54,917 bases of DNA from a virus (IMGVR_UViG_3300042402_002325:1-54917); one strand, 5' to 3'. Counted from the stretch's first letter, positions 20,097 to 37,595 are shown. A program made the numbers and translations. The notes: generated by a model not told the origin, from the letters alone.

Positions 20097-20123
20097 TGGG
20101 CAGTTTTAGTCATACCCAGGACT
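20097..20123 (-). ncRNA. mini-pseudoknot repeat, copy 1
   Basis: AGTC-CTGGGTAT-GACT-AAAAC-TGCCCA between the ahpD stop and tRNA-Ile. Confidence 0.65.
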
Positions 20124-20127
20124 TTTG

Positions 20128-20640
20128 CTAAGCTGAAAGTATCTTTGCTAATGCATTAACTGTTGCTGCAATTCTTCCGATATCACGCAACTGTTCAACT
20201 GTATAGCCTTCTTCTTTCAATGTTTCATAGTGTGCTTTAACACAGAAATGACACTTACCAACAATAGAAGAAGCAAGAGAGTATGCCTCAAACTTTGCCT
20301 TTGTTGTACCACCATGAGATGCAATTGCATTCATACGAAGTTGTGCTGGTAGTCCAGTAAGATTAGCATCATCTGCCATTTCTAAATATGGATACCAAAC
20401 ATTGTTTTGTGCCATGATTGCCCCTGCAGTTAATGCAGCATTTCTTTCTACCTCGTCAGTTGCACTTGCTGTAATGAAAGCAACAAGCTTACCATTGCCA
20501 GTTGAAAAAGCAGCTGCAAGAGCAAGATATGTAGCATGCTCAGAATCAATAGATGACCTATTAATCACTGCATCAAGATTTAACTTAATGTCTTTTGCAT
20601 ACTCTGGAAGGTTTTCCTTAAGCTGATCAACCCAAGACAT
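20128..20640 (-). CDS. ahpD: alkyl hydroperoxide reductase AhpD
   Basis: LPEYAKDIKLNL, MAQNNVWY, GKCHFCVKAH. Confidence 0.9.
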   Translation of the reverse strand: MSWVDQLKENLPEYAKDIKLNLDAVINRSSIDSEHATYLALAAAFSTGNGKLVAFITASATDEVERNAALTAGAIMAQNNVWYPYLEMADDANLTGLPAQLRMNAIASHGGTTKAKFEAYSLASSIVGKCHFCVKAHYETLKEEGYTVEQLRDIGRIAATVNALAKILSA

Positions 20641-21176
20641 TATAGAGTCTCTCCTCCAAGAGGTCTATTGCATGCACAAAGCTCTCCTGTTTGTAGTGCA
20701 TCAAGCACACGAAGAGCTTCATCTGCATTACGACCAACATCAAGATTATTTACTGTAATGTGTTGAATAGTGTTTTCTGGATCAACAATAAATGTTGCAC
20801 GATATGTAACACCAGATGAATGATGGATACCAAGATCTCCAGCTAACTGATGTGCTGTGTCTGCAAATGCCCATGAGTTTGTCTTTTTTAGATCATCATG
20901 TGCGTTACGCCATGCAACCTTACAGAACTCATTGTCAACTGAACCAGTCATAAGAACTGCATCACGATCATTAAAATCATTTACAAGTGCATCATATGCA
21001 ACAATTTCTGTTGGGCATACGAACGTAAAGTCCTTTGGATAAAACACAATGATCTTCCATTTGCCTGGAAAAGAATCTTGCGTTAGTACTTCAAATGAGG
21101 AATCGTCATACGTCAATGCCCCAGGCTTAACTCCAGTAACGGCAAAGTTACCAAGCTTTTCTCCTATAGTTTTCAT
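20640..21176 (-). CDS. ahpC: peroxiredoxin AhpC (actinobacterial type)
   Basis: FYPKDFTFVCPTE; LDALQTGELCACN. Confidence 0.95.
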   Translation of the reverse strand: MKTIGEKLGNFAVTGVKPGALTYDDSSFEVLTQDSFPGKWKIIVFYPKDFTFVCPTEIVAYDALVNDFNDRDAVLMTGSVDNEFCKVAWRNAHDDLKKTNSWAFADTAHQLAGDLGIHHSSGVTYRATFIVDPENTIQHITVNNLDVGRNADEALRVLDALQTGELCACNRPLGGETL

Positions 21177-21215
21177 TTATTCTCCTTATATAAGTAGATC
21201 ATTTTATAGATCTCG

Positions 21216-21289
21216 TGCACCAGGTAGGACTTGAACCTACGACGACCAAATTATGAGTTTGGGGCTCTAACCAACTGAGCTACTGGAGC
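21216..21289 (-). tRNA. tRNA with CAT anticodon (Ile2 or elongator Met)
   Basis: GCTCCAG/CTGGTGC acceptor with one mismatch; CCAAA-CTCATAA-TTTGG; lacks the initiator GGG/CCC. Confidence 0.85.
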
Positions 21290-21492
21290 TAATACCACTA
21301 TTCTTTTTCTTGCTTAATTCCAACAGTCATTACTAGGTACGATATAAAGTATCCCAATAAAAAAGACGGTACTGTTAAAAGTATTGCTAGCATACATAAT
21401 GACATTAGTTAATCCTATCTAAATCTTCAAGACTATTAATACCATAAAGATTAATCATTTCTTCAACAGTAAACTCTAAGTCAAACTCTTCT

Positions 21493-21702
21493 TCAGTATC
21501 CACCTGTGCACTCATTTCTTGTATGATATAAACGAATCTTTGTCATTATTTTGCGGGACGGAGCAAAAAGGTCATCTTTACAAGTTAAACACTTATAAGA
21601 CCATTCACCAGTAAAGAAGTCATGAACATAACCCTTAGCGTTAGCATACTTCTTGGCTACGAAGGTTTGAAAAGGATCTGGTATATCGTAATGTTTAAGC
21701 AT
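21493..21702 (-). CDS. small Zn-finger-like hypothetical protein
   Basis: CLTC...H..NEC; start after GGAGG. Confidence 0.65.
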   Translation of the reverse strand: MLKHYDIPDPFQTFVAKKYANAKGYVHDFFTGEWSYKCLTCKDDLFAPSRKIMTKIRLYHTRNECTGGY

Positions 21703-21925
21703 CTCGCCTCCAATGCAGATATGATCTAATATAAACAGCACCATAGGCAACTGCTGCAAAGATAAATCCGTATTGGTCTGTGACTAAGGCATAGGCTATC
21801 CACAGGCACTCATTGAACAATAGTACGAACCATCCCCACAGAGTTTTTCTTCCAACAAAGTAAATACCAGATACACCAATACAAGCAAGTACCCAGTGTG
21901 CATATTCAGCAATCCATTCAATCAT
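21695..21925 (-). CDS. PnuC-like small membrane protein
   Basis: Three TM helices; GW...NECLWIAYA...QYG pattern. Confidence 0.6.
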   Translation of the reverse strand: MIEWIAEYAHWVLACIGVSGIYFVGRKTLWGWFVLLFNECLWIAYALVTDQYGFIFAAVAYGAVYIRSYLHWRRDA

Positions 21926-21939
21926 ATATTCAGTATACC

Positions 21940-22089
21940 CTAAGACCGTGTATCAGTCAAGTGCTCTCCCCTTGCAACCTTAGCTGCAAGAATACGCATA
22001 CCAAGGGCATTTGTAACAGAGTCTTCAATTGGAATAGACTCAATAGCTCTTGCAATTTCTTCTCTTAACATCATATAATCTAGGCTCAT
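21940..22089 (-). CDS. 49-aa hypothetical protein (MSLDYMMLREEIARAIE...)
   Basis: Manually read ORF with -10 TATACT upstream. Confidence 0.55.
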   Translation of the reverse strand: MSLDYMMLREEIARAIESIPIEDSVTNALGMRILAAKVARGEHLTDTRS

Positions 22090-22124
22090 ATACCAAGTAT
22101 ACACTCTATATAATATGATGTCAA

Positions 22125-22153
22125 GTATAACATTAGGTGAACACTTGGTTAAA
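22125..22153. promoter_or_regulatory. putative PhoP/RegX3 PHO box upstream of pstS
   Basis: Three units at 11-nt period, on - strand TTTAACC, GTTCACC, GTTATAC. Confidence 0.5.
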
Positions 22154-22202
22154 TGAGCCTATTATCTGTCAAAATATAGTTTATTTACTATATACTCTTA
22201 TT

Positions 22203-23327
22203 ATGAGACTTAAGCTTATCGCAATAGCAGTCGTTGCTGCTTTATCTATTTCTACCCCAGCCTTTGCAACAGAAAATATTGTTGGCAATGGAGCATCATT
22301 TCCATCAAACCTGATTGACGAATGCAGATCATCTTATGCCAAGTCCACAGGCAATCTTGTTACATACTCAGCAAACGGATCTGGTGCTGGAAAGACTTCA
22401 TCTGATAAAGGCATTGGAGATTTCTGGTTTTCAGACTCAGCACACACTGCATCAACAAAGAAGCCATCTGTAATACACATCCCAGTTGTTGCAGCACCTA
22501 TTGCGGTTATGCATAACCTTCCAGGAAACAGACAGTTATATTTGTCATCAACTACAGTCGCTAAAATTTTTGCGGGGGATATAACAATGTGGAATGACCC
22601 TGCTATTAGGGCTGATAACAACAGAAAGATTCAAGAAGTTATCTATAGAAAAGATAGGTCTGGCAATTTAGTTAAAGATAAGTCTGGTAATCCAGTAGTT
22701 CTAAGAACAACAAGCAAGAGTATTGTTTATACTTTACCAAACCAAAAGATCAAGGTTGTTTACAGGCTAGACAGTTCTGGAACAACTAATAACTTTGTTA
22801 GATTTATGAAGGCAAACTCACCAGAAATTTGGACAAAGGCAGTATCTGATTCATTCTCTACATCATTTCCAAAGAGCATTAATGACATTGGAAACATGGG
22901 AAGAATTGTTGGAGCAAACCAATCACAGGGAGTTGCAACACTTGCATCAAAGACTAAGTATTCTATTACATATGCAGAGGTATCATTTGCTAAGTTCTTT
23001 AAACTAAAGGTGGCGAACATAGGAAATGCATCAGGAAACTTTGTTGCACCAGATAGTGCAAATGTATCAGCGTTCTTGGGTGAGGCATCAATTGACTCAA
23101 ACAACATACTTACCTACGACTATGCCACCAAAGAGCCTGGAGCCTATCCTCTAGGGATTGTATCCTACCTTCTAGCAGATACAGCAGGCAAGAACAAAGC
23201 ATCTGTAAAGGAATGGGCAAAGTATTTGGTTAGTGCAGAGTGTGTTAATGCTAAGCCAGAACTAGGGTTTACTTTGCTAACAGGAAAGTTCTTAGAGTTT
23301 GTAAACAAACAGATCAATCGTCTGTAG
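22203..23327 (+). CDS. pstS: phosphate-binding protein PstS
   Basis: Signal peptide; GNGASFP, GSGAG, KIFAG.IT.WNDPAI, R.DSSGTT.NF, AYP. Confidence 0.9.
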   Translation: MRLKLIAIAVVAALSISTPAFATENIVGNGASFPSNLIDECRSSYAKSTGNLVTYSANGSGAGKTSSDKGIGDFWFSDSAHTASTKKPSVIHIPVVAAPIAVMHNLPGNRQLYLSSTTVAKIFAGDITMWNDPAIRADNNRKIQEVIYRKDRSGNLVKDKSGNPVVLRTTSKSIVYTLPNQKIKVVYRLDSSGTTNNFVRFMKANSPEIWTKAVSDSFSTSFPKSINDIGNMGRIVGANQSQGVATLASKTKYSITYAEVSFAKFFKLKVANIGNASGNFVAPDSANVSAFLGEASIDSNNILTYDYATKEPGAYPLGIVSYLLADTAGKNKASVKEWAKYLVSAECVNAKPELGFTLLTGKFLEFVNKQINRL

Positions 23328-23595
23328 TGTTATGCCACTTGCTTGTATCAACAGTATAGTATGTACCCCAACGCTCATATGGTTTATTAAATATAACCCA
23401 TATCTTGCTATGGAATTTAAAACGGTACCCATATCTACCCTGCTCATCTAAATCAAAAGCCTTAAGTAAACTCCTAGTAGCAATAGAACTACAGGCGTTA
23501 CTGAACCATCTAAGAGGAAGTATCTTTGTCTTTTCTGTCTTGGTTATCTTGTTGAGGAACCCATCTGAGTTTGCCATCTTTATACTCTCTTTCAT
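23314..23595 (-). CDS. hypothetical protein (start uncertain)
   Basis: ORF in the - strand gene run. Confidence 0.6.
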   Translation of the reverse strand: MKESIKMANSDGFLNKITKTEKTKILPLRWFSNACSSIATRSLLKAFDLDEQGRYGYRFKFHSKIWVIFNKPYERWGTYYTVDTSKWHNTTDD

Positions 23596-23678
23596 ATCCC
23601 AAAGCTTTCCAGTCCATCTGCATAATACGTGGTTCTTTCATATAGTAAGTATACTATATTGCCATCAAAAAGTAAAGT

Positions 23679-24380
23679 CTATTTATTACATATAATTTTA
23701 ATAAATTTGCCACCGTTATTTTTATAGTATTTGCGGGCATTTATAGATATGGAGGTTAGCAAATCTCTTGCTTCTTTGTCATCTATATTTTTAAAGTTTT
23801 CAATGTCTTCTTCACAAGACATAATAACCTTCTTGGTTATGTCTAACGAAACAACATTTTTAAATTTATCAGTATTGTTCAAAAAATATCTAATTACATG
23901 GTTGTTGTCAAGATAAGAGAATGTACCTCCTGGAGATAAAACCCTATATACCTCATTAAAAAATAAATTTGGATTCTCATAACAATGTGAAGATTCTACG
24001 CTTGTTACAATATCAAATTGATTTTCTAAATAATCTAATTTTTCTGCATCAGAAACTTTATATTCTACATCAATGCTATTGTTATTAATGCAATATTCTA
24101 TGTGATTTACATTAAGATCACAGGCATATATTTTTTTTAAATCAAGATGTTTTCTGTATACTTCAACACCCCCACCTCTTCCACAACCTATGTCTAGCAA
24201 AGTCTTGTCCTTTGTTTCTATTGTTTCAAGTGCATTTATATATAGGCTGGCTTGGTTTTTTAAAAAATCATTATTTAAAAATGGATAAGATGGCGAGTAT
24301 CCATGATTCATAAAGGTTATTTTAGACCTTACAAATAAATCATTTAGTTTATTATAGGTTTCTTGTTGATTAGATAGCAT
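23679..24380 (-). CDS. class I SAM-dependent methyltransferase
   Basis: FMNHGY, LDIGCGRGGG, VESSHCY, RVLSPGG. Confidence 0.9.
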   Translation of the reverse strand: MLSNQQETYNKLNDLFVRSKITFMNHGYSPSYPFLNNDFLKNQASLYINALETIETKDKTLLDIGCGRGGGVEVYRKHLDLKKIYACDLNVNHIEYCINNNSIDVEYKVSDAEKLDYLENQFDIVTSVESSHCYENPNLFFNEVYRVLSPGGTFSYLDNNHVIRYFLNNTDKFKNVVSLDITKKVIMSCEEDIENFKNIDDKEARDLLTSISINARKYYKNNGGKFIKIICNK

Positions 24381-24406
24381 AAATAAAGTATATCAGATAT
24401 ACAAGG

Positions 24407-24640
24407 CTATTGCTTGCCCTTGATTTTTACCCAAGTGCCAATATTTCCACTGCTAACCTTTGATCGTAATATTTCTGCAAAGCTTGTTCCTATTTCAGAA
24501 CCTATATATTCTTCCCCTGTTTCAAGATCAGTTAGTTTCCATTTTTCTGGAGCCTTAGTATGTATAACTAATTCAACTGGCTTATCAAATGATTCTACTT
24601 CTGATCCATCCTTAAGTATTCTTTTGTTTATTTTTCCCAT
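24407..24640 (-). CDS. hypothetical protein
   Basis: HTKAPEKWKLTDLETGEEYIG. Confidence 0.7.
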   Translation of the reverse strand: MGKINKRILKDGSEVESFDKPVELVIHTKAPEKWKLTDLETGEEYIGSEIGTSFAEILRSKVSSGNIGTWVKIKGKQ

Positions 24641-25290
24641 TGCTGCTCTCTTATTCTATCTATACTCCACTGACCCACTACTTGAAAGTTTTGAGATTTT
24701 TTTGATTCATAGTATTCTTTATTTTTTTCACGTCTCTTGTATGCTTGTTCCTTAAGTTCAAGGTTATTTGCAATAGTTTGAGATATGCCATCTGGGGAGT
24801 AAACAGGAAAATTTTTATTATAAAAAGATAAATCTGTGTGTATTTCTTTTGCTATTAAATATCTTTGATAGTAGTCGTCGTCTTCGCATTGGTATGGATA
24901 GTAGTTTTCATCAAATAAACCAATCTTTCTAATAAAATCTTCACCAATTGAAAAACAGCTCCATCCTTCTTCTGAGCAATTAATTGCTGATTCACTACTG
25001 TGACTATATGCTAACTCTAGTGCACCCTTTGCAAATACTATGTCTGCAGAAGAAAAGAACCAAAACTTTTCATTAGGGTAAAGCTTTATAGTTAAGTTCC
25101 AAGATGCAGCCAAACCAAGGTTAAAGGGCAGGTTAAGAACTCTTATATTTAAGTCATGTCTTTTAGGTCTGTACTTTTGTTCACCATTATTTATTATTAA
25201 TATTTCTTTTATTGGAAAGTCTATGGACTCTAATGCTTTATCTAATAGTTCGTATTTATTTAAAACTGGTATTGCTAAAACTGGTATCAT
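24628..25290 (-). CDS. GT2-like glycosyltransferase
   Basis: AIPVLN, NLGLAASWN, GLFDENYYP..EDDDY. Confidence 0.8.
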   Translation of the reverse strand: MIPVLAIPVLNKYELLDKALESIDFPIKEILIINNGEQKYRPKRHDLNIRVLNLPFNLGLAASWNLTIKLYPNEKFWFFSSADIVFAKGALELAYSHSSESAINCSEEGWSCFSIGEDFIRKIGLFDENYYPYQCEDDDYYQRYLIAKEIHTDLSFYNKNFPVYSPDGISQTIANNLELKEQAYKRREKNKEYYESKKSQNFQVVGQWSIDRIREQQWEK

Positions 25291-25415
25291 TACGACACAA
25301 GACCCATAGATAGGTGATCTAAACAGACATCTGCCACTACATAGTCAGAGTGATCTACGACTACATCGTAATGCGTTGCGTCCTTTTCACAAAAAAAGCA
25401 TCTGGTTTTCTTCAT
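25290..25415 (-). CDS. 41-aa Zn-ribbon-like protein (MKKTRCFFCEK...VCLDH)
   Basis: Manually read; TAATG coupling to the next gene. Confidence 0.6.
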   Translation of the reverse strand: MKKTRCFFCEKDATHYDVVVDHSDYVVADVCLDHLSMGLVS

Positions 25416-25467
25416 ATATATATCATACCACAGACGAATATGATATAATGAATAATAAGGGGGCGGT

Positions 25468-26076
25468 ATGTTTTTTATTTATGATGATGACTTTTTAACA
25501 GAGGAAGAAATTCAGGCTGTGGAGACTAGGTTTTGGCACAGCAATATACCTTTTAGATTTGTAAAAAATGCTTCCCCAGTAGTCAAAGATAATACAGGTG
25601 TTGTTGACATAAAGATTCAAGATGTATCTTTTTTTACTGTTGAGGTTAGTCAAGATCAGCCAGAATCAAAGATATTTTTTGATATAATTAAAAAATTTAC
25701 AGAAAAACATGGTATTGAGTTTGAAGGATTTAGAAGGGTTAAGCTCAATATTATGACACCAACAGTTGAAAGATCACAAAAGACTTTGTATCCACATATA
25801 GATTATAACGAACCACACTATATTTTCTTATACTACCCTAGCGATTCTGATGGAGACACCATAATCTATAATGAAACCTACTCAGGTAATTTTGTTAAAG
25901 AGGCTACAATTAGCAAAAGAATTACACCAAAACGTGGAGCAGCATTTATTGTAGATGGTAGACACTTTCACTCAATTACAACCCCTTCGGAGCATGCTTT
26001 TCGTGGAGTAATAAATTCCAATTTAACAATAAATAGTTGGGATGCTTTAAAGTTCGGCGGCGACATAGAGGTATAA
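25468..26076 (+). CDS. 2OG-Fe(II) oxygenase-like protein (phage type)
   Basis: PHID...LYY.SDSDGDT...PKRG...DGRHFH...R. Confidence 0.75.
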   Translation: MFFIYDDDFLTEEEIQAVETRFWHSNIPFRFVKNASPVVKDNTGVVDIKIQDVSFFTVEVSQDQPESKIFFDIIKKFTEKHGIEFEGFRRVKLNIMTPTVERSQKTLYPHIDYNEPHYIFLYYPSDSDGDTIIYNETYSGNFVKEATISKRITPKRGAAFIVDGRHFHSITTPSEHAFRGVINSNLTINSWDALKFGGDIEV

Positions 26077-26101
26077 AACCATCTCATGCTCCAAAGGAGC
26101 A

Positions 26102-26668
26102 CTATTGGTTATCATCCTGCATTGGCGATGTACCCAATATGGTGGCATTCTTAATAACATTACATCTTCCGTGAGAAGGTCTGACATTTTCAATAGTATC
26201 TGCACCACCCCTAGATATAGGATGAACATGGTCTATATGTAAACCCTTTTCCCAGCCAGGATCACCACATTTTCTGGGGGAATTCAAATCAATATCTTCA
26301 TTACATATATGACATATAGCCCCATAAAGATCTAAAACATCTTGGTCTGTGTAGTATCCATAGTCAACACCTACTTTTCTAGCCCTAGTTCTTCTGCTTT
26401 GATAAGTGTATTGGTGTTTCTTTCTACTAATCTTTCTTAAACTATTTATAGTGTCTTTTCTAATGATGCGTTCATTTCTCCAATAAGCTCTTTCAGCATC
26501 AGTACATGGCTGGCATGGCTCTTGCTTCATGTCTCGTCTGTGCCAGTCATAGCCAGAGCGTGTACCATGTGCTGGTTCTTGCTTATGCCTTAGAGACACA
26601 CCAAATCCTTCCATCTGACATGGTTTGATGAGTTTCCCAGAACAGTGGATCTTTGTATGACAAACCAC
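26102..26668 (-). CDS. HNH endonuclease with N-terminal HGT-x-GY...PC-x-x-C module (start uncertain)
   Basis: CHIC...IDHVHPISRGG...NVRPSH..CN..K. Confidence 0.85.
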   Translation of the reverse strand: MVCHTKIHCSGKLIKPCQMEGFGVSLRHKQEPAHGTRSGYDWHRRDMKQEPCQPCTDAERAYWRNERIIRKDTINSLRKISRKKHQYTYQSRRTRARKVGVDYGYYTDQDVLDLYGAICHICNEDIDLNSPRKCGDPGWEKGLHIDHVHPISRGGADTIENVRPSHGRCNVIKNATILGTSPMQDDNQ

Positions 26669-26693
26669 ATTTTTGGCATTCGTTTTTCTTCAT
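26583..26693 (-). CDS. 36-aa Cys-containing protein (MKKNECQKCG...)
   Basis: Manually read short ORF. Confidence 0.45.
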   Translation of the reverse strand: MKKNECQKCGLSYKDPLFWETHQTMSDGRIWCVSKA

Positions 26694-26739
26694 ATACTTA
26701 TTGTCTCAGAAAAAGCTAGATAAGTCAAGCAAAACCAGA

Positions 26740-28660: not shown

Positions 28661-28714
28661 TTATCCACATGTCAATAGGCTAAAAATACCATAGTTATCC
28701 ACAAGTTATCCACA
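28661..28714 (+). promoter_or_regulatory. three perfect DnaA boxes
   Basis: TTATCCACA at 28661, 28695, 28706. Confidence 0.75.
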
Positions 28715-29765: not shown

Positions 29766-29780
29766 GTTGCAGCGTCTGCT

Positions 29781-31326: not shown

Positions 31327-31603
31327 GGTGGTCTCTTTCTATTTGTTGGCGGTCAATACTTAAATTATACGTCAAGGCATACAGTTCTGTCAAGGCTTCT
31401 AGGTACCCCTCAGCATAGGTGCGCTCCATACTATCCATGGCCTCACCTGAATAATCTTCTTGCTCCTGTGCTTCTTGCAACCGTACTTCTGCGTCTACCA
31501 TGGCTACCTTAAGATGACCATGTATTAAATCTATTAGTGGTATAGAGATATCCTCTAAAGCTTTTTCCAAATGCGGCGGTATGAAAGGATAATCTTTACT
31601 CAC
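31307..31603 (-). CDS. hypothetical protein
   Basis: Operon ORF. Confidence 0.65.
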   Translation of the reverse strand: MSKDYPFIPPHLEKALEDISIPLIDLIHGHLKVAMVDAEVRLQEAQEQEDYSGEAMDSMERTYAEGYLEALTELYALTYNLSIDRQQIERDHHAKLGI

Positions 31604-31772
31604 TAATTAACTCCAATACATAATCGTATGCGTCTAGTGCTCCTAGGTAGTAGTCATCTGACTCCCAATGAAATCCCTCTCCAGGCTCATCACCTTGTAG
31701 GGCTTGTTCCATGTCTTGCTCAATACTTATCTTGTGAATCTTTAGATACTCGCTTAGTGTGTTCATGTCCAT
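31596..31772 (-). CDS. 58-aa acidic protein
   Basis: Manually read; fills the gap between annotated ORFs. Confidence 0.6.
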   Translation of the reverse strand: MDMNTLSEYLKIHKISIEQDMEQALQGDEPGEGFHWESDDYYLGALDAYDYVLELISE

Positions 31773-31775
31773 ATA

Positions 31776-32015
31776 TTAATTATAGGGGTTGGTGTTGATT
31801 TTTACAAGTTGTGTGGGTGTGACCTTAATCACAGGTTCATAGTCAGGGGTTGGATCTTCATCCACATGGGTAACAGTGGCATCAAACTTGTTTAATAAGA
31901 TTACATGTGATGTGGCATGGCAAATACAGGCGGGATCAATTTGAGGCTCAACAGATGCAGTAATCTCTATAAGAGCATCGCAGTCAGTACATAGATAAGT
32001 AAACTTAGTCCACAT
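31776..32015 (-). CDS. small Zn-ribbon protein
   Basis: CTDC...CIC. Confidence 0.65.
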   Translation of the reverse strand: MWTKFTYLCTDCDALIEITASVEPQIDPACICHATSHVILLNKFDATVTHVDEDPTPDYEPVIKVTPTQLVKINTNPYN

Positions 32016-32173
32016 TAGTCAAAGTACCCTTCTGCCCATAAGCCATTCATAAACTCTGTTACTTTAAATAAGTTATCATGTAGCCATGGGTCATCATCAG
32101 GATTAACAGTAGTTAAAGCAGAATGCACAGCGCTAATCATTTCATCTATATCTTCTTTACAATAACCTAGCAT
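32015..32173 (-). CDS. 52-aa protein (MLGY...GLWAEGYFD)
   Basis: Manually read; coupled to genes on both sides. Confidence 0.65.
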   Translation of the reverse strand: MLGYCKEDIDEMISAVHSALTTVNPDDDPWLHDNLFKVTEFMNGLWAEGYFD

Positions 32174-32334
32174 CATTCCTCATCCCACCAGTATTTGACA
32201 ATTGTATTCAAGGTAGTGTGGATGTTACAATCACAATCCCCACCATTCATGTTTTCCATGTATTCAAGATGTTGTTCGTTGTCCATGTACATCTCATTGA
32301 CTAGTTCATCAATCGTTCTCATTGTTTGGGTCAT
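32173..32334 (-). CDS. small hypothetical protein
   Basis: Leaderless start after TGTAAAAT. Confidence 0.6.
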   Translation of the reverse strand: MTQTMRTIDELVNEMYMDNEQHLEYMENMNGGDCDCNIHTTLNTIVKYWWDEE

Positions 32335-32455
32335 GATATTAATTTTACAGGAATCTGCGAAAAAAAGCAAGTCCTCTTAATTAAATTTTCTGAGATTAAT
32401 TATATAGCTTCTTAAAATGTCCGTTTTGTCCAAATTGCCTCGGCCCAAATTCTTG

Positions 32456-32529
32456 CGATCTGTATGGGACTTGAACCCACGACCTCTACCGTGACAGGGT
32501 AGCGCTCTAACCAACTGAGCTAACAGACC
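32456..32529 (-). tRNA. tRNA-Asp(GTC)
   Basis: GGTCTGT/ACAGATC acceptor; CTACC-CTGTCAC-GGTAG; TTCAAGT. Confidence 0.95.
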
Positions 32530-32531
32530 AT

Positions 32532-32558
32532 TGAGCAGTTTTACATCATGCTCAGGAT
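32532..32558 (-). ncRNA. mini-pseudoknot repeat, copy 2
   Basis: ATC-CTGAGCAT-GAT-GTAAAAC-TGCTCA, 2 nt 5' of tRNA-Asp. Confidence 0.65.
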
Positions 32559-32564
32559 TTTTTA

Positions 32565-33581
32565 TTATGCTAGTTGCATAACATTCTGCACAACTTTTAG
32601 CAAACGATTTTTTTCTGCGTTGATAGCAGGGTCAAATCCGCTTGCGCTTGCAAGGATAGATTCGTTAGAACCACCACGAGCAGAACGATACCAATCTAAA
32701 CGCTCTGTTAGTGCATTGAAAGCACCCCATGCGTTACCAGCAATCATTCCGTTAAACTCGCCTGTGTAGATGTCATTGATAACATCAACCTTGTTTTCCC
32801 ACTTCTTTAGTGCGCCCTTAGTGTCCTTGTCAGGCTGAGGGTATGCAGCAAGAATGATGTCGTTGAATTGCTTAGCATTGACTTCCTTCTCAATCATTGC
32901 CTTAGCCATGATGTCAAATGAATCCATGTAAGAGTTAGCCATACCTAGTGTCTGGCGTGCAATAGCAACCTTACCAGATGCGGTCTGAGTGTGGCGAATC
33001 TTGAAAGATTGCTTGACACCATTCTTGATTTTCTTTTGATTAAGTGCAAGATTGAGAGTGTTAGCGCACACAACACGAACAGGTGTAATGCTTGCTTGAA
33101 TAGCGATTGAGCCATCATGTGATGTGTTGATAAGTAAATAAGTCTTTACCTTATCTGCAACGCCGTTAGGGTCTAGAACAGTTTCACGCTCTAGTGCTAA
33201 TGCACCAAATACAACACGTCCACCCTTGATTGAGCCAGCGGTTTCCCATCGTCCGCCACCATCTAGAATGTTATCACCAAATGAGAATAAATCTTCATTC
33301 TGCATAACATGGTAGCGCTCACCTACGACACCAAGAATGTCTGTCTGTGAATTGTCTGTTGGGTTAGTACGCAAAACGTACTGATAGTTTTTGTCGCTTG
33401 TTAAATGTGATGGAGTTTCCAAATCTTCCAGACGAACATTCCAGCCGTTGAGGTTAGCAGCCTCTAACATTTGTGCTGTATTTTTTTCTTCTGTGAATAC
33501 GGTACCCAATCCATGCCAAGCAGGTTCACGGAAAGATGCGAATGATGTTTTTCCGTTTTGTGTTTCTAGGTCATGTGCCAT
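32565..33581 (-). CDS. DUF932/TIGR03299-family phage/plasmid protein
   Basis: MAH...EPAWHGLG, ETAGS.KGG, SHDGS, TPVRVVCANTL, IRHT. Confidence 0.9.
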   Translation of the reverse strand: MAHDLETQNGKTSFASFREPAWHGLGTVFTEEKNTAQMLEAANLNGWNVRLEDLETPSHLTSDKNYQYVLRTNPTDNSQTDILGVVGERYHVMQNEDLFSFGDNILDGGGRWETAGSIKGGRVVFGALALERETVLDPNGVADKVKTYLLINTSHDGSIAIQASITPVRVVCANTLNLALNQKKIKNGVKQSFKIRHTQTASGKVAIARQTLGMANSYMDSFDIMAKAMIEKEVNAKQFNDIILAAYPQPDKDTKGALKKWENKVDVINDIYTGEFNGMIAGNAWGAFNALTERLDWYRSARGGSNESILASASGFDPAINAEKNRLLKVVQNVMQLA

Positions 33582-33757
33582 GAGTTTTCTTCTTTCTGTT
33601 GTTGTTAATACAATCATACACGAATGGGCTGACAAATGCAAATCTATATAGTTAAAAATGGGAGAAAATGGACATTTTTTTAATGTGTCGTAAATCATAG
33701 TGTGATGTGGATCACAGGGCCCGAGCTGAATTTTTATGCAACGGCATGAATAAAAGG

Positions 33758-33785
33758 TGAGCAGTTTTAAAACGTGCTCAGGTTT
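33758..33785 (-). ncRNA. mini-pseudoknot repeat, copy 3
   Basis: AAAC-CTGAGCAC-GTTT-TAAAAC-TGCTCA. Confidence 0.65.
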
Positions 33786-33801
33786 ATTAGTAGACCCCCT
33801 A

Positions 33802-34218
33802 CTAAATATCTATGCGGTCCACACTGGATGATAGGTACGCAACGCCTTCAGGATATGATACAGAATCAAAATCAATGTCATGAATTAAATTCTGTGCACT
33901 CTCTTCATCACGTGCATTAACTGTAACTGAATACATTACTGTAACTTCAAGTTCAAATTCTTTTGTTAACTCAAAGCCACAGATGCTAGCAATCTCTTCT
34001 GCATCTGATTCTGTAATTTGTGCATTGTCAAGCGCTTCTAAGGTCCACTCTTGCATTTCATTACGCATACGGTTACGCTCTGCAGCCTCACCATATGAGC
34101 GCTGAGTTACTGTTTGAATGTGTGATTCAAGATTAGCAATACGCTCTTTGTTTGATACTAATTGTGACTCAAGAAATTCTCTTGTCATGTAGTGTGTGTC
34201 TGTTTTTAGTTGGTCCAT
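33802..34218 (-). CDS. hypothetical protein
   Basis: Start MDQLK downstream of a promoter and AGAAAGCAGG. Confidence 0.75.
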   Translation of the reverse strand: MDQLKTDTHYMTREFLESQLVSNKERIANLESHIQTVTQRSYGEAAERNRMRNEMQEWTLEALDNAQITESDAEEIASICGFELTKEFELEVTVMYSVTVNARDEESAQNLIHDIDFDSVSYPEGVAYLSSSVDRIDI

Positions 34219-34304
34219 TGGGGGCCTGCTTTCTGTTAGTTTGTTTAGTTTAATTGTACAGGTGCCCACTGACAAATGTCAAGCTTGATCCAGCACCCTT
34301 GCGG

Positions 34305-34332
34305 GAAGCAGTTTAGCGACATACTTAGGTCG
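34305..34332 (-). ncRNA. mini-pseudoknot repeat, copy 4
   Basis: CGAC-CTAAGTAT-GTCG-CTAAAC-TGCTTC. Confidence 0.6.
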
Positions 34333-34382
34333 TTTCCACTCTATTTATTTATACACGCATTTCTGTGGTCGTGTTGATTTAT

Positions 34383-34808
34383 TTAGAGATAACGAGCAAT
34401 CGCATTGTATGTAGAAGTATTGACTACTTCCTCATCTGTCATCTTGAGAATACGAATTGCGTTCTCAATTTCCTGCTTCTGCTCTAAGTAGTTATGACGA
34501 CCAATTTGCTCAAAGTCACGCTCAGGCTCTTTTGGTAGGTCTGCCTCTGATGTTGTTAAATCAAAGTCAATGTTGAGTGTGTTGTTCCAAGAACGATAGT
34601 TTGTTCTAACATTTTCTGCTTTCTTGATGTTAGAAATAGCATAAGCAAAGATTTCCTTGCGCCACTTTTCCATAGCCTTGTTATACTTTGCTTCGTTTGC
34701 TTCTTGTGAGGTGTAAGACTTTTCTAGTTCTGCTAGACGAACTTCTAGTGCCTTGATTACCTTTGGTGTTGCGATTTTTACTGAGATGGATTTCCCGTTT
34801 CTTGCCAT
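34383..34808 (-). CDS. hypothetical protein
   Basis: Own promoter; helical ORF. Confidence 0.8.
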   Translation of the reverse strand: MARNGKSISVKIATPKVIKALEVRLAELEKSYTSQEANEAKYNKAMEKWRKEIFAYAISNIKKAENVRTNYRSWNNTLNIDFDLTTSEADLPKEPERDFEQIGRHNYLEQKQEIENAIRILKMTDEEVVNTSTYNAIARYL

Positions 34809-34872
34809 GTGTTTTCTCTTTTCTTTTGGTGGTTTATTTATAGTATAGGGGGTAGGTCTGACATTTTTAGTG

Positions 34873-34899
34873 TGAGCAGTTTAGAGTCATGCTCAGGAC
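34873..34899 (-). ncRNA. mini-pseudoknot repeat, copy 5
   Basis: GTC-CTGAGCAT-GAC-TCTAAAC-TGCTCA. Confidence 0.65.
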
Positions 34900-34913
34900 A
34901 TAGAACTAACTAA

Positions 34914-35081
34914 TTACGCATTAGCCTTCCATGTTGTCCAGCGTGTGTTGCCATTTACATCTAACTTCACACGAACTGTGTCCTTTGCAGTAGGTGAGAT
35001 TTCAAGAATTGTTCCTGTTACCTTTGACTTCTGAGATGTGTAGAGGTCGCCTACCTTGTATGTGTTTGTTGCTACTGTCAT
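34914..35081 (-). CDS. small SH3/KOW-like protein
   Basis: YKVGD...VTGTI...VRVKL; AGGAG RBS. Confidence 0.7.
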   Translation of the reverse strand: MTVATNTYKVGDLYTSQKSKVTGTILEISPTAKDTVRVKLDVNGNTRWTTWKANA

Positions 35082-35270
35082 TTTGTTTCTCCTTTTTAGT
35101 TTGTTGTATGTATTAAGTATAACATTTCCTACTGACATTTTTCAACTCCATTTCTTGTATTTCTCACTATTTGAGACGCTTGCGGGTGTGATTTATGTCA
35201 CATTATTGGTTGATTAGCAAGACTAACAACCCTATTAGTGATAGGATAACTAGACTTTCCATTTATCTCC

Positions 35271-35993
35271 TCATTTCTTACTTGACGAGAATACTATGTC
35301 ACTCTTAGAGTATACACACAATGAGCAAGAAACGCAAGCGCTTCCATTTGTTGAGATTAGGGGAATGGCTTTCTTATTCTCAGGACACTTAGCCCCTACC
35401 TTACCAATCATCTCTTTCATGTCTGCCTGTCCTACTAAGAAATTCTTAGCAAGGTAGGCAAGCTTTATGCCATGATCTTTTTTCAGGGTAACACCAATAG
35501 ACTTATTCTCACTATCCGTAGAATAGTATAAAGAAAGATTAGCAATGTCCTTTAGCATTACCGCTGCGCTCTTCACACGTGTGTATACCCAAAATTGAAT
35601 ATCAGGATTATTAAGGATGACATGCTTCCATGCGAACGTATAAGTATCATTAAAGAAATCGCCGTCCCAGTGAATACGAAATAGCATAGGCGCTTCACGC
35701 TTTACACAATCAGCCTTAAAGTCTTTAATCATCTCTTCAAGCAATGCTTCAATGGTGTCATGGTCTGCGTCTTTGACTAACTCCCAATTGTGCAATAAGT
35801 TTTTCTTTACTGTTGGGAAGACTTTTTCCAATTTGCCAGCATAACAAACACTCTCGCATACGCTAGTCGCTCCAGGACATGAATAGTTTTTCCCTGCGGG
35901 TAATCCGAATGTGTTAGCGATACTTGCTTGTTTTCCATTAGGGGTGACGGCATTTGCTACTTTCCTATCTTTGCTTCTGAGTAATTTTGTCAT
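35271..35993 (-). CDS. mycobacteriophage Gp88-like protein
   Basis: FGLPAG..SCPGA...C...CYA, FRIHWDGDF, FWVYTR, C..C..C. Confidence 0.85.
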   Translation of the reverse strand: MTKLLRSKDRKVANAVTPNGKQASIANTFGLPAGKNYSCPGATSVCESVCYAGKLEKVFPTVKKNLLHNWELVKDADHDTIEALLEEMIKDFKADCVKREAPMLFRIHWDGDFFNDTYTFAWKHVILNNPDIQFWVYTRVKSAAVMLKDIANLSLYYSTDSENKSIGVTLKKDHGIKLAYLAKNFLVGQADMKEMIGKVGAKCPENKKAIPLISTNGSACVSCSLCVYSKSDIVFSSSKK

Positions 35994-36215
35994 GGTGGCT
36001 ACTCGCTTTCTTTCTTTAATTTTAGCATAAGGGACTGACATTTTTTTCTATTGTATTTCTTTTTATTTGGGACAGCGGAGGCTGCATTAGAACGACGTAA
36101 TTCCATTAATCGTCTTAATTCCTCAGCATTTTTCTTCATGTAATAATCTTACCAGAAATGGGAGAAAATATCAACTTACGTAATTGTGGCGTAGATCACA
36201 GGGCCTCGGCCCCTT

Positions 36216-36449
36216 TTAGTCTAAGTAGACGTACCAATCAACTTCTTCATCAAATGCAAACTGAACAACTTCTGATTCACCAAAATCATTTGTGATTTCA
36301 ATGTCATAGTTATCTCCTGTTGAATCGCATTCAATAAAAGTTACTTCAACGATTTCATCATTGTAACTGATTAGATCGCCAATCTGCAATGCATCAACTT
36401 TCAATGCATCAGCTTTTACAAGTTCCATGTCATTTATTGTAGCACTCAT
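36216..36449 (-). CDS. small acidic protein
   Basis: Operon ORF. Confidence 0.65.
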   Translation of the reverse strand: MSATINDMELVKADALKVDALQIGDLISYNDEIVEVTFIECDSTGDNYDIEITNDFGESEVVQFAFDEEVDWYVYLD

Positions 36450-36770
36450 TTATTCTAACCCCAATCCTAATTCAAATCCCAAGTCTTCATCATAGTCTTC
36501 AATGTTTTCTGGCAACCATGCGTGCAGGTGGTGTTGCTCAATGATAGCCCAAACTGGTGCAGCAGTTAAGCCCTTGTAAGAAATACCATCTGGCATTTCA
36601 ATAGTCTCGTCCCACTTATCCTCATGAGCAAAGTCAATAGCCTGTATGCATACTGGCACCATGCTTAGCGGTACTGGTGGATAGTGATTACCCTGTAGGT
36701 GATAACCAATAGCCTGTTCAAGGCTTATGTCAATGTTTTCTGCTAAGTCTGTTGCGAAATTGCTTCCCAT
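36450..36770 (-). CDS. hypothetical protein (HLQGNHYPPVP)
   Basis: Operon ORF with TAATG coupling. Confidence 0.75.
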   Translation of the reverse strand: MGSNFATDLAENIDISLEQAIGYHLQGNHYPPVPLSMVPVCIQAIDFAHEDKWDETIEMPDGISYKGLTAAPVWAIIEQHHLHAWLPENIEDYDEDLGFELGLGLE

Positions 36771-36985
36771 TATCGTGTTACCACCAATCCTGTTGTGTAA
36801 AGAGTTTTTGTGTGCATCTTGCCACTAGGTTCTGACAAGTTAATTGTTGCGTATTCTTTTGCATCTCCACTATCAACAAATTGCTGAAAAGTTTCAACGG
36901 CAGTTAGAGCATCACTATAACGACCAATCCAAACAGGTGTAGGTGCAGAGTCATAGGTAGCGGTGACAGAGTATAGGTATTCCAT
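36770..36985 (-). CDS. hypothetical protein
   Basis: GGAG RBS; coupled. Confidence 0.7.
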   Translation of the reverse strand: MEYLYSVTATYDSAPTPVWIGRYSDALTAVETFQQFVDSGDAKEYATINLSEPSGKMHTKTLYTTGLVVTR

Positions 36986-37161
36986 TATGCGTTCTCCAAT
37001 GTGTATTCGTTCATTTCATTACTAGCGTACCATGTGGTGTATTCATTGTAAAGCATGACACCCTTGTCACACTCACAAAAATCTGTATCGTATTCGCCAT
37101 GACCATTACCCCAAAAGAGTACGCCCTCATCATAGCAATCCATGCAATCCCAAGTGTTCAT
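36985..37161 (-). CDS. 58-aa CxxC...CxC protein
   Basis: Manually read; fills the operon gap. Confidence 0.6.
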   Translation of the reverse strand: MNTWDCMDCYDEGVLFWGNGHGEYDTDFCECDKGVMLYNEYTTWYASNEMNEYTLENA

Positions 37162-37163
37162 TA

Positions 37164-37373
37164 TTAGTCTCCAATCTTTACTGCAAGTATGCGGTATGTA
37201 TCTTTTAGATTAAGTGGTGCTGAGTAGTGGGGGCGAACCTGAACAAGATAACTTTCGCAATCTTGATACCATACATCAGACTTTTCTGCTGAGATAATTT
37301 CTCCCGTAAGTGTGCGGGACTTATAAGTTTTTCCTACAAGTAGGTTTTCTATTGTATAGACATTTGCTGACAT
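37164..37373 (-). CDS. hypothetical protein
   Basis: GAGG RBS; own promoter. Confidence 0.7.
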   Translation of the reverse strand: MSANVYTIENLLVGKTYKSRTLTGEIISAEKSDVWYQDCESYLVQVRPHYSAPLNLKDTYRILAVKIGD

Positions 37374-37514
37374 GAGCAACCTCTTTCTTTTTGTTTAATT
37401 ACTTTATTACTCTGTAATCCTATCATGGGTGTCTGACAAAAAACTAATTACTAGCGAGTAGTCTTAAATAGTGAGACGCTCAAAAAATGTGAGAAAAATC
37501 ACAACCACGTAAAG

Positions 37515-37538
37515 TTATCCACAACAGCCTGTGGAAAA
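37515..37538. promoter_or_regulatory. inverted DnaA-box pair
   Basis: TTATCCACA at 37515 and TGTGGAAAA at 37530. Confidence 0.55.
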
Positions 37539-37566
37539 CCTGTCGGGCAGCTTTTTTGAAAAAGAT

Positions 37567-37595
37567 CAAGCAGTTTTAAAACTTGCTTAGGTTTT
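37567..37595 (-). ncRNA. mini-pseudoknot repeat, copy 6
   Basis: AAAAC-CTAAGCAA-GTTTT-AAAAC-TGCTTG. Confidence 0.6.

What the first reader, a model, noticed from the sequence alone, without database searches (positions are those of the whole stretch)
20097..37595. Six-copy 27-nt covarying H-type pseudoknot 3' of genes, twice abutting tRNA 5' ends
Seen on the - (sense) strand: AGTC-CTGGGTAT-GACT-AAAAC-TGCCCA (20097), ATC-CTGAGCAT-GAT-GTAAAAC-TGCTCA (32532), AAAC-CTGAGCAC-GTTT-TAAAAC-TGCTCA (33758), CGAC-CTAAGTAT-GTCG-CTAAAC-TGCTTC (34305), GTC-CTGAGCAT-GAC-TCTAAAC-TGCTCA (34873), AAAAC-CTAAGCAA-GTTTT-AAAAC-TGCTTG (37567). Stem 1 covaries (GTC/GAC, ATC/GAT, AAC/GTT, GAC/GTC). The 8-nt loop covaries with the 3' segment (GAG/CTC, GGG/CCC, AAG/CTT). 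CCT and AAACTGC are invariant. All copies lie about 4-50 nt after a stop codon, and two end 2 and 6 nt before tRNAs. Inference: an RNA-level element (nuclease block, processing or antitermination signal, or protein/ligand-binding aptamer). The topology recalls preQ1-I but the sequence differs.
Basis: partly seen in the sequence, partly recalled or inferred. Interest (0 to 1): 0.85.

Follow-up and report, generated by a model that had tools for sequence, protein, structure and literature searches.

The report
Widespread tiny pseudoknot after phage genes
A 27-base RNA pseudoknot with an almost invariant core sits just after the stop codons of six genes in this lake phage, recurs in hundreds of other phage and bacterial mobile-element sequences, and matches no catalogued RNA family, so it looks like an undescribed, broadly used RNA module.

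Summary
Six copies lie on the minus strand at the stated places. A covariance model scores them 33.8-47.7 bits, and the next-best hit scores 12.8. Two copies end 2 and 6 nt before tRNA genes.

Stem 1 (3-4 bp) and stem 2 (5 bp) both covary, although an A.C at the outer stem 2 pair is tolerated.

No Rfam 15 family matches.

The motif is co-oriented with the upstream ORF. The gap from stop codon to motif has a sharp minimum of 8 nt. About 5-15% of copies in each set are followed within 1-13 nt by a tRNA 5' end. A few are followed by a hammerhead-like cleavage site, and seven directly abut DUF2800 RNA.

Upstream genes are typical phage or mobile-element accessory genes: DUF932, HSP20, ArdA, SSB.

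Best reading (about 0.3): a compact 3'-UTR "punctuation" pseudoknot that stays folded beside the terminating ribosome and guards the 3' end of the upstream cistron after downstream cleavage. Ribozyme or processing site, factor or ligand binding, and termination-linked roles remain open.

The parts
20097..20123 (-). Copy 1. S1 AGUC/GACU, L1 CU, S2 GGGUA/UGCCC (one U.G), L3 AAAAC. Starts 4 nt after the stop codon of a CMD-domain ORF (20128-20640) and ends 6 nt before tRNA-Ile(UAU) at 20016-20090.
   Evidence: 33.8 bits
32532..32558 (-). Copy 2. S1 AUC/GAU, S2 GAGCA/UGCUC. Starts 6 nt after the stop codon of the DUF932 ORF (32565-33698) and ends 2 nt before tRNA-Asp(GUC) at 32455-32529.
   Evidence: 47.7 bits
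33758..33785 (-). Copy 3. S1 AAAC/GUUU, S2 GAGCA/UGCUC. Starts 16 nt after the stop codon of the 157-aa ORF. Followed by a CRP-like palindrome (33701-33716) and the DUF932 start codon at 33698.
   Evidence: (46.0 bits)
34305..34332 (-). Copy 4. S1 CGAC/GUCG, S2 AAGUA/UGCUU (one U.G). Starts 50 nt after the stop codon of the 141-aa ORF, with TATAAATA just upstream. A near-consensus sigma-70-type promoter (34282-34253) follows directly.
   Evidence: (35.7 bits)
34873..34899 (-). Copy 5. S1 GUC/GAC, S2 GAGCA/UGCUC. Starts 14 nt after the stop codon of a 74-aa ORF. TATAAATA lies about 35 nt downstream.
   Evidence: 44.7 bits
37567..37595 (-). Copy 6. S1 AAAAC/GUUUU, S2 AAGCA/UGCUU. Starts 5 nt after the stop codon of a 74-aa ORF (37601-37825). 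Followed by a region with DnaA boxes and a CRP-like palindrome (37488-37538).
   Evidence: (38.3 bits)
32455..32529 (-). tRNA-Asp(GUC). Its RNase P cleavage site would leave copy 2 with a 2-nt 3' tail.
20016..20090 (-). tRNA-Ile(UAU). Its RNase P cleavage site would leave copy 1 with a 6-nt 3' tail.

Best explanation
The element is a self-contained 27-28-nt H-type RNA pseudoknot. Its layout is S1 (3-4 bp, closed by an invariant C-G), L1 (CU), S2 (GAGCA/UGCUC type, 5 bp), a 1-nt junction, and L3 (6-7 nt ending in AAAC). It is carried in the 3' untranslated tail of individual cistrons in phage and mobile-element accessory or early gene cassettes.

Proposed mechanism (inferred, not shown): it is transcribed with the upstream gene and sits as close to the stop codon as the terminating ribosome allows without melting it. 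The transcript is then cut just downstream, by RNase P at an abutting tRNA, by a hammerhead, or by host endonucleases in the G-poor linker. After the cut, the pseudoknot is the 3'-terminal structure of the upstream mRNA and blocks 3'-to-5' exonucleases, preserving the stop codon and the message. The invariant junction nucleotides would be what lets so small a fold, presumably with base triples as in other compact pseudoknots, be stable.

Shown here: the sequence motif, both helices by covariation, strand and orientation, the spacing floor, the downstream partners, and the breadth of distribution.

Inferred: the triple-helix fold, the cleavage events, and the exonuclease block.
For: Structure:
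- 306 of 315 unique instances have at least 3 contiguous S1 pairs.
- On 150 sequences, 96.1% of cells pair against 81.3% in shuffles (0 of 500 shuffles reach it). S1 pairs 2-4 carry 52-74 double changes each.
- An all-against-all column scan finds only the S1 pairs standing out (0.99 observed against 0.47-0.50 expected).
- In 107 copies not selected on S2, the outer pair is G-C 82, A-U 12, G.U 11, A.C 1, U.U 1 (Fisher p 7e-9). The next pair is A-U 94, G-C 11, G.U 2 (p 2.5e-13).

3'-UTR position:
- A same-strand ORF of at least 100 codons ends within 60 nt 5' of the motif in 152 of 278 instances, against 22 of 278 for the mirrored arrangement.
- In 254 of 313 instances with an upstream ORF, the stop-to-CCT distance is 8 nt in 45 and 9 nt in 33, with only 6 between 0 and 7.
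- This replicated in an independently seeded set: 166 of 219 instances have an upstream ORF, with 45 at 8 nt, 24 at 9 nt and 4 between 0 and 7.
- That leaves 5-6 nt between stop codon and S1, about the length of mRNA a ribosome holds downstream of its A site (recalled knowledge).

Cleavage sites just downstream:
- A tRNA 5' end lies 2-13 nt after the motif in 29 of 190 viral instances and 1-9 nt after it in 10 of 219.
- Hammerhead-like cores place their predicted cleavage site 5-12 nt after the motif in L142, L202, L002 and twice in L405.
- In L142 an Rfam-scored hammerhead also lies upstream of the ORF.

Other context:
- In the window, copies 3-6 are followed by promoter-like elements, so they lie at ends of expression units.
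- Both flanks are G-poor. The 3' flank has 2-11% G over 6 nt and the 5' flank 9-15% at positions -6 to -3, which fits an insulated fold.
Against: - No RNA 5' or 3' ends were observed. The only RNA-library data were assembled contigs.
- Nested-fold energies are small, -3.4 to -8.3 kcal/mol. The fold would be a weak barrier unless tertiary contacts add much.
- Twelve invariant positions across many phyla is more conservation than a simple roadblock needs. It is typical of ribozymes, aptamers or specific protein sites.
- In about 25 bacterial loci a 17-26-aa ORF ends on or a few nt before the UGA inside the motif, so there the ribosome must melt the pseudoknot. Several of these loci show a terminator-like hairpin with a T run 20-40 nt downstream, read by eye, which would already protect the 3' end.
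- Only about 5-15% of copies have a recognisable cleavage site right after them.
- 97 of 313 copies are followed by a ribosome-binding site and ORF within 60 nt, so a role for the downstream gene is not excluded.
- In the second set, 10 of 219 copies do follow a tRNA within 200 nt.
Confidence: 0.3

Rival explanations
1. Processing signal. The pseudoknot is either a very small self-cleaving ribozyme or a specific substrate or guide for a universal RNase such as RNase P. It would cut polycistronic phage or mobile-element transcripts at cistron borders and define the 5' end of what follows.
For: It occupies the same genomic niche as bacterial hammerheads, which flank single genes or short gene blocks in prophages, ardA included (PMC3088659, passages read). 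In the window it separates four consecutive genes. Upstream genes include ArdA, SSB, Ant, DUF932 and minor head proteins.

Core conservation is at ribozyme level (12 invariant columns).

Structured RNAs begin right after it: DUF2800 RNA at the very next base in 7 loci, and tRNAs 1-13 nt downstream.

Its 5' half has the hairpin, A-rich linker and loop pseudoknot layout of the pistol ribozyme (recalled).
Against: At 27 nt, with no conserved nucleotide at any candidate scissile site (the 3' flank is variable), it would be far smaller than any known natural ribozyme.

It lacks the P2 and P3 helices of pistol and matches no Rfam ribozyme model.

Hammerhead-like cores directly after it would be redundant if it cut itself.

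A tRNA-like ACCA tail follows only 25 of 312 copies.
Confidence: 0.2
2. Binding site for a conserved host factor (ribosome, RNA polymerase, an RNA chaperone or an RNase) or for a small ligand. An aptamer-like module that tunes the fate of the transcript.
For: The invariant nucleotides cluster at the helical junction (C-G of S1; CU; G-C, Y-G and A-U of S2; AAAC). The junction base and both helix ends vary. The topology is that of the smallest riboswitch aptamers. Presence in many phyla, with a single copy in each of 5 sampled bacterial genomes and no shared neighbouring gene, points to a universal partner rather than a dedicated encoded one.
Against: No expression platform. It lies after genes, not before a coherent gene set: upstream genes are diverse and downstream features range from tRNAs to promoters. 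The junction is a single variable nucleotide, leaving no obvious ligand-recognition loop.
Confidence: 0.15
3. A translation-termination-linked element. Placed at the ribosome's mRNA entrance when the stop codon is in the A site, it would modulate termination, recycling or re-initiation. For example, it could uncouple neighbouring cistrons or keep post-termination ribosomes out of tRNA and structured-RNA sequence.
For: The spacing has a sharp onset, with 5-6 nt between stop codon and S1 in the modal class of two independent sets. That is the geometry of recoding pseudoknots (recalled). A second discrete class has the stop codon at a fixed place inside the motif: 17 of 254 at -5, where the UGA of CCUGAGCA ends a conserved 20-aa ORF.
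Against: About half of copies lie further from the stop, up to 80 nt. There is no slippery site and no conserved extension frame. The three stop codons are used in ordinary proportions (TAA 158, TAG 49, TGA 47). Genome compaction combined with 'do not overlap the ribosome footprint' explains the floor equally well.
Confidence: 0.12
4. A transcription pause, termination or attenuation signal at the end of expression units.
For: In the window, copies 3-6 precede promoter-like sequences. The simple terminator scan listed only 7 minus-strand candidates in 19.9-39.8 kb, none at an end of these units. Some copies are followed by a T run.
Against: tRNAs start 1-13 nt after the motif with no room for a promoter, so transcription must read through. 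The 3' flank is not a U tract (T 25-39% per position) and the helices are weak. The terminator scan does not flag any copy.
Confidence: 0.08
5. A DNA-level element: a recombination hot spot or cassette border (like the promoter and stem-loop cassettes of T4-type phages, or attC or REP), or a promoter or single-strand hairpin site.
For: In related lake and wastewater phage contigs, joints start or end at motif or tRNA borders, for example 32529 to 33752 (skipping the DUF932 gene between copies 2 and 3) and 32558 to 37678. The motif flanks single genes in series. AAACT could serve as a weak -10 element, and downstream RNAs start just after the motif.
Against: Compensatory changes in two interleaved helices and frequent U.G pairs on the sense strand (15 of 150 at one pair) are not expected of a duplex protein site or promoter. 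There is no conserved -35 region; the 5' flank is unconserved. The strong orientation bias follows transcription. Recombination between repeated copies can be a by-product.
Confidence: 0.07

Closest known systems
Compact luteovirus-type H-type pseudoknots (e.g. beet western yellows virus frameshift signal); recalled knowledge
   Same: About 28 nt. Short S1 and S2, 1-2-nt L1 containing C, one extruded junction base, A-rich L3. Lies 5-6 nt downstream of the codon in the ribosomal A site.
   Different: Here the upstream codon is a stop codon, not a slippery heptamer. There is no overlapping reading frame. The sequence is unrelated. It is found in DNA phages and bacterial mobile elements, several copies per phage genome.
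preQ1-I riboswitch aptamer (RF00522)
   Same: Very small H-type pseudoknot whose A-rich 3' tail follows stem 1.
   Different: No match to the Rfam model. The loop is fully used by S2, leaving a 1-nt variable junction. It lies after genes rather than in 5' UTRs of queuosine genes.
Gene-flanking self-cleaving ribozymes of prophages (hammerhead, twister, pistol)
   Same: Same niche: repeated between single genes of phage or prophage accessory regions, ardA neighbourhoods included (PMC3088659, passages). Sometimes directly adjacent to hammerhead-like cores. The 5' half resembles the hairpin, A-rich linker and pseudoknot part of pistol (recalled).
   Different: Half the size or less. No catalytic-core match. 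Cleavage not tested.
Promoter-early/stem-loop cassettes of T4-type phages, and REP or attC repeats (recalled)
   Same: Short repeated elements at the borders of single accessory genes. Breakpoints among relatives coincide with them.
   Different: Those are lineage-specific and mostly simple hairpins acting partly as DNA. This one has an invariant core shared across phyla and a covarying pseudoknot on the RNA strand.
MALAT1-type 3'-end triple helix made by RNase P cleavage at a tRNA-like structure (recalled; functional analogy only)
   Same: An A-rich structured element immediately upstream of an RNase P site that would become the protected 3' end.
   Different: Eukaryotic nuclear RNA with a different architecture. 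The protection here is only inferred.

Membership tests
preQ1-I riboswitch | Scores against the Rfam covariance model | tested here: not met
   No hit at gathering score or at E<=10 on 18 kb or 1.2 kb.
preQ1-I riboswitch | Lies in the 5' UTR of queuosine or preQ1 transport and synthesis genes | tested here: not met
   The motif follows ORFs. Neighbouring genes are DUF932, HSP20, CMD-domain, ArdA, SSB and others.
preQ1-I riboswitch | H-type pseudoknot with an A-rich tail after stem 1 | tested here: met
   Both helices are supported by covariation and L3 ends in an invariant AAAC.
-1 frameshift-stimulating pseudoknot | Slippery heptamer 5-9 nt upstream, inside an ORF with an overlapping -1 frame | tested here: not met
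   The codon 5-6 nt upstream is the stop codon in the modal class. tRNAs, promoters or new ORFs follow. A slippery-site scan as such was not run.
Self-cleaving ribozyme classes in Rfam (hammerhead, twister, twister-sister, pistol, hatchet, HDV-like) | Match to a class model or catalytic core | tested here: not met
   No hit over the motif.
Self-cleaving ribozyme (any, including a new class) | Site-specific self-scission | not testable with these tools
   Needs in-vitro transcription and cleavage assays.
Intrinsic (Rho-independent) terminator | G+C-rich hairpin immediately followed by a U tract | tested here: not met
   No copy is flagged by the terminator scan. The 3' flank is T 25-39% per position. 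Nested folds are -3.4 to -8.3 kcal/mol. tRNAs abut two copies.
tRNA-like structure / RNase P minihelix | 3' NCCA after the stacked helices | tested here: not met
   ACCA follows 25 of 312 copies, mostly in one phage group.
REP/attC/PeSL-type cassette-border repeats | Repeated in the same orientation in consecutive intergenic regions, with breakpoints between relatives at the repeat | tested here: inconclusive
   The serial arrangement is met. Joints at motif borders are seen in contigs of relatives. But RNA-type covariation and cross-phylum conservation do not fit a purely DNA element.
Drum RNA (Weinberg 2017) | Followed by a Rho-independent terminator and associated with one protein family on either strand | tested here: not met
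   Description read in PMC5737381 (passages). No Rfam hit. My recollection that Drum precedes ribozymes and tRNAs was wrong.

The most novel reading that the evidence does not exclude
This is a new class of functional RNA with an active role rather than a passive structure. The boldest reading the data allow is one of two things. It could be the smallest natural self-cleaving or RNase-P-directing 'punctuation' ribozyme or substrate. Or it could be a universal exoribonuclease-resistant 3' cap (a bacterial counterpart of viral nuclease-resistant RNAs) that phages and conjugative or integrative elements use across many bacterial phyla to express each accessory or anti-defence gene as its own stable message.
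Probability: 0.3. Interest if true: 0.9.

Novelty: new variant of a known kind. Interest (0 to 1): 0.75.

Why it matters
Few RNA motifs this small (27 nt) show 12 invariant positions and two covarying helices in sequences from Saccharibacteria, Actinomycetes, Chloroflexi, Firmicutes, Bacteroidota, Proteobacteria and many phage contigs. Those that do have usually turned out to be ribozymes or riboswitches.

The motif marks the borders of single accessory genes in phages and mobile elements, including ArdA, SSB, DUF932 and HSP20. That is the same niche as the still unexplained bacterial hammerheads and twisters. Working out what it does could therefore explain how such cassettes are expressed or exchanged on entering a new host.

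It would also give a very compact, portable part for insulating or stabilising cistrons.

The spacing floor after stop codons is a natural measure of how close a structure can sit to a terminating ribosome.

Tried and rejected
- **DNA similarity to named phages.** Megablast and blastn of 30-38 kb gave only tRNA-sized matches. Protein searches gave distant actinophage and Xylella-phage relatives only.
- **Marine cyanophage S-BM3.** No true copy in 169 kb, only 1-mismatch chance hits. Not all T4-like cyanophages carry the motif.
- **Purely structural scan without sequence.** Uninformative: 582 and 692 hits against 510-596 in shuffles.
- **Drum RNA.** My recollection did not fit the paper's description.
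- **Promoter readings** (sigma-70 -10 at AAACT, sigma-54, N4-type hairpin promoter). Rejected for lack of a conserved -35 region or correct spacing, and because two interleaved helices covary.
- **tRNA-like ACCA tail.** Only 25 of 312 copies.
- **A third helix enclosing the motif.** None found.
- **RNA evidence.** One search for sequencing runs found 20 DNA runs from lake or freshwater metagenomes holding at least 0.33 of the sampled words, and 4 RNA-labelled runs with small shares. Laying those 4 gave contigs only, three of them probably DNA. No transcript starts, ends or strand could be read.
- **Rfam on 35 motif-bearing loci**. Besides tRNAs and one tmRNA-like hit, only DUF2800 RNA (7 loci) and one hammerhead were found. 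The regex-found hammerhead-like cores in L002 and L202 did not reach gathering score.
- **Literature.** Full-text searches for the motif strings, for cyanophage early promoters, for leading-region or DUF932 RNA motifs and for phage structured-RNA surveys found no description. A 2023 catalogue of about 10,000 unnamed phage RNA candidates (PMC10690425, passages) may contain it in supplements I could not open. PMC4509812 is not held.
- **The 20-aa peptide family.** No NCBIfam match for the 10 peptides tested.
- **The search of earlier findings.** Closed.

Full report
**What the window is.** The 54.9-kb window is the whole record held for this genome, with 36% G+C. Its genes look like a fragment of a large tailed phage: endolysin, tail-fibre-like protein, several 2OG-Fe(II) oxygenase-like proteins, a PstS-like protein, peroxiredoxin, glycosyltransferases and methyltransferases, and five tRNAs. 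No named phage is close at the DNA level. Near-identical sequence is held by 20 DNA runs from lake or freshwater metagenomes.

**The observation.** Six copies of the composite motif lie on the minus strand at the coordinates given. A covariance model run without filters gives these six at 33.8-47.7 bits and nothing else above 12.8 bits. The heptamer alone is at chance level. Copy 2 ends 2 nt before tRNA-Asp and copy 1 ends 6 nt before tRNA-Ile. Each copy starts 4-50 nt after a stop codon. Four consecutive genes (74 aa, 141 aa, 157 aa, DUF932) are each followed by a copy.

**It is not private to this phage.**
- The same variant with one more fixed base returned 118 loci, again at the limit, in bacterial genomes and MAGs. 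These are labelled Saccharibacteria, Anaerolineae, Actinomycetes, Desulfobulbaceae, Omnitrophota, Lactobacillaceae, Nocardia, Segatella and others.
- From the pattern's information content I would expect only a handful of chance matches in collections of this size (my estimate).
- Five large viral records hold 1-5 copies each, 15 in all, against 1 hit for the reversed control pattern.
- Five bacterial genomes hold one convincing copy each.
- A marine Synechococcus myovirus has none.

**Structure: stem 1 and layout.**
- Of 315 unique instances, 306 have at least three contiguous stem 1 pairs beginning with an invariant C-G. Pairs 2 and 3 use all four Watson-Crick types.
- The spacer between the two conserved blocks is 7 nt in 312 of 315 instances.
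- On a 150-sequence alignment deliberately enriched for stem 2 variants, the pseudoknot gives 96.1% paired cells against 81.3% in shuffles (0 of 500 as high). It has 199 doubly changed cells against 65, and collapses when partners are slid by 1-3 columns.
- An unbiased scan of all column pairs, including 20 nt of flank on each side, picks out only stem 1: 0.99, 0.99 and 0.72 paired against 0.41-0.50 expected. There is no enclosing helix.

**Structure: stem 2.** The fetch patterns fixed its sequence, so I used 107 copies that were not the seed of their own locus.
- The outer pair is G-C 82, A-U 12, G.U 11, A.C 1, U.U 1.
- The next pair is A-U 94, G-C 11, G.U 2.
- Against this, a direct scan for the uncompensated variant found 88 viral loci with A opposite C at the outer pair, and 89 of those 90 copies have stem 1 intact.
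- So the outer pair is preferred but not obligatory.
- The base opposite the first loop U varies, so L1 is CU and stem 2 is five pairs.
- Nested folding alone gives only -3.4 to -8.3 kcal/mol. If the element is stable, tertiary contacts must contribute. That is an inference.

**Known families.** Rfam 15 gives only the five tRNAs at gathering score. It gives nothing at the motif at E<=10 on 18 kb or on 1.2 kb. My recollection of the Drum motif was wrong when checked against the paper (passages). Full-text searches for the motif strings and for related topics found no description.

**Context upstream.**
- The motif is co-oriented with an upstream ORF. An ORF of at least 100 codons ends within 60 nt 5' of it in 152 of 278 instances, against 22 of 278 for the mirrored arrangement.
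- In 254 of 313 instances with an upstream ORF, the distance from stop codon to CCT is 8 nt in 45 and 9 nt in 33, then tails off. Only 6 cases fall at 0-7 nt. A separate class of 17 has the UGA of the motif itself as the stop codon.
- An independently seeded set of 219 instances reproduces the floor: 45 at 8 nt, 24 at 9 nt, 4 at 7 nt, 1 inside the motif.
- Subtracting stem 1 leaves 5-6 nt. That is about the length of mRNA between the A site and the ribosome's entrance (recalled), and is also the classical spacing of recoding pseudoknots.
- Upstream genes are diverse. Of 128 viral ones, 30 are DUF932 and 9 HSP20. Of 68 bacterial ones, hits include DUF3768 (4), DUF7249 (3), DUF932 (2), DUF2958 (2), ArdA, Ant, SSB and phage head proteins. 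This is the typical cargo of phages and conjugative or integrative elements.

**Context downstream.**
- In set 1, 29 of 190 viral copies are followed by a tRNA 5' end at 2-13 nt (21 of them tRNA-Asp), and none is preceded by a tRNA within 200 nt.
- In set 2, 10 of 219 have a tRNA at 1-9 nt, of seven identities, and 10 do follow a tRNA within 200 nt.
- Of 313 instances, 30 precede a tRNA, 97 precede a ribosome-binding site plus ORF within 60 nt, 181 precede something else and 5 lie at contig ends.
- The start codon is never closer than 12 nt.
- In 7 loci the DUF2800 RNA (RF02960) begins at the base after the motif.
- Five hammerhead-like cores lie directly after the motif, with the predicted cleavage site 5-12 nt downstream. 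These are regex-level calls and did not reach Rfam's gathering score where tested. In L142 a scored hammerhead also lies upstream of the 60-aa ORF.
- Both flanks are G-poor.
- In the window, copies 3-6 are followed by promoter-like elements: CRP-like palindromes, a near-consensus sigma-70 promoter, and TATAAATA.

**Reading.** The strand, the position after stop codons, the ribosome-sized floor and the recurrent cleavage sites just downstream fit best with a 3'-UTR module that remains folded while the upstream ORF is translated. It would become the 3' terminus of that message after RNase P, ribozyme or endonuclease cutting, shielding it from 3' exonucleases. I give this about 0.3.

The main objections are these. 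No ends were observed. Computed stability is modest. Conservation exceeds what a roadblock needs. And there is a class of small bacterial ORFs that terminate inside the motif, several followed by what look by eye like ordinary terminators.

The same facts, and the shared niche with gene-flanking hammerheads (PMC3088659, passages), keep alive a processing or ribozyme role (0.2). Also open are a factor- or ligand-binding role (0.15), a termination-linked role (0.12), transcription pausing or termination (0.08) and a DNA-level cassette-border role (0.07). For the last, contigs of related phages show joints exactly at motif or tRNA borders, which may simply reflect recombination between repeated copies.

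**Verdict.** This is a real, strongly supported and widely distributed pseudoknot RNA motif, absent from Rfam 15 and from the literature I could search. Its function is unproven.

Noticed in passing
window 28661-28714, 37515-37538, 39425-39445 (and 3200, 11756): There are nine perfect DnaA boxes (TTATCCACA), clustered in three intergenic spots. With one mismatch allowed there are 33 matches against 20.6 expected (0 of 100 shuffles as high). This may be a replication origin or DnaA-controlled early promoters. The same boxes recur after motif copies in related viral loci.
   Followed up: partly
window 31818-39748 (e.g. 33701-33716, 35187-35202, 37488-37503, 38330-38345): CRP-type palindromes TGTGA-N6-TCACA occur 11 times: 5 perfect and 6 with one mismatch, against 3.0 expected. 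Ten of the eleven lie between 31.8 and 39.7 kb, several just upstream of minus-strand small genes. This looks like a shared operator or promoter element of the early-type gene block.
   Followed up: no
window 34253-34282 (-) and TATAAATA near 34340 and 34835: A near-consensus sigma-70 promoter (TTGACA-18-TACAAT) lies directly after motif copy 4 and is conserved in relatives. T4-late-like TATAAATA boxes lie next to copies 4 and 5.
   Followed up: no
window 44467-54382 (+): A run of twelve consecutive ORFs of 218-358 aa. Of the six I scanned, four hit 2OG-Fe(II) oxygenase families, one is collagen or tail-fibre-like and one has no hit. This may be a paralogous array.
   Followed up: partly
L148, L155, L157, L162, L166, L197, L200, L213, L214, L222, L232, L239 and others (bacterial MAG loci): A conserved ORF, 20 aa in most members (MKRFxIPRxAHCS[D/E]GCxxxS), has a ribosome-binding site in most members and ends on the UGA inside the motif. 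A second 17-18-aa family (MRWMFPHATHCS[A/T]CGS..) ends just before the motif. Several look by eye to be followed by an intrinsic terminator. Neighbouring genes are unrelated. The 10 members of the first family that I tested have no NCBIfam match.
   Followed up: partly
L015, L158, L172, L208, L211, L231, L238: DUF2800 RNA (RF02960, 121-160 bits) starts at the base immediately after the motif in all seven loci. The Rfam model may be missing a conserved 5' pseudoknot partner.
   Followed up: no
window 32529-33752, 32558-37678, 20089-21214 and others: Contigs of related phages in wastewater and estuary runs join across these points. They skip the DUF932 gene, or 5.1 kb, or the genes between two tRNAs. 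Gene cassettes appear to be gained and lost at motif and tRNA borders.
   Followed up: no
L001 1680-2185; L102, L105 after the motif: Sequence after some motif copies looks tRNA-like (T-arm-like GGTTCGATTC), but ARAGORN did not call a tRNA there. In L001 a tmRNA-model hit (61 bits) and two tRNAs lie 250-800 nt downstream.
   Followed up: no
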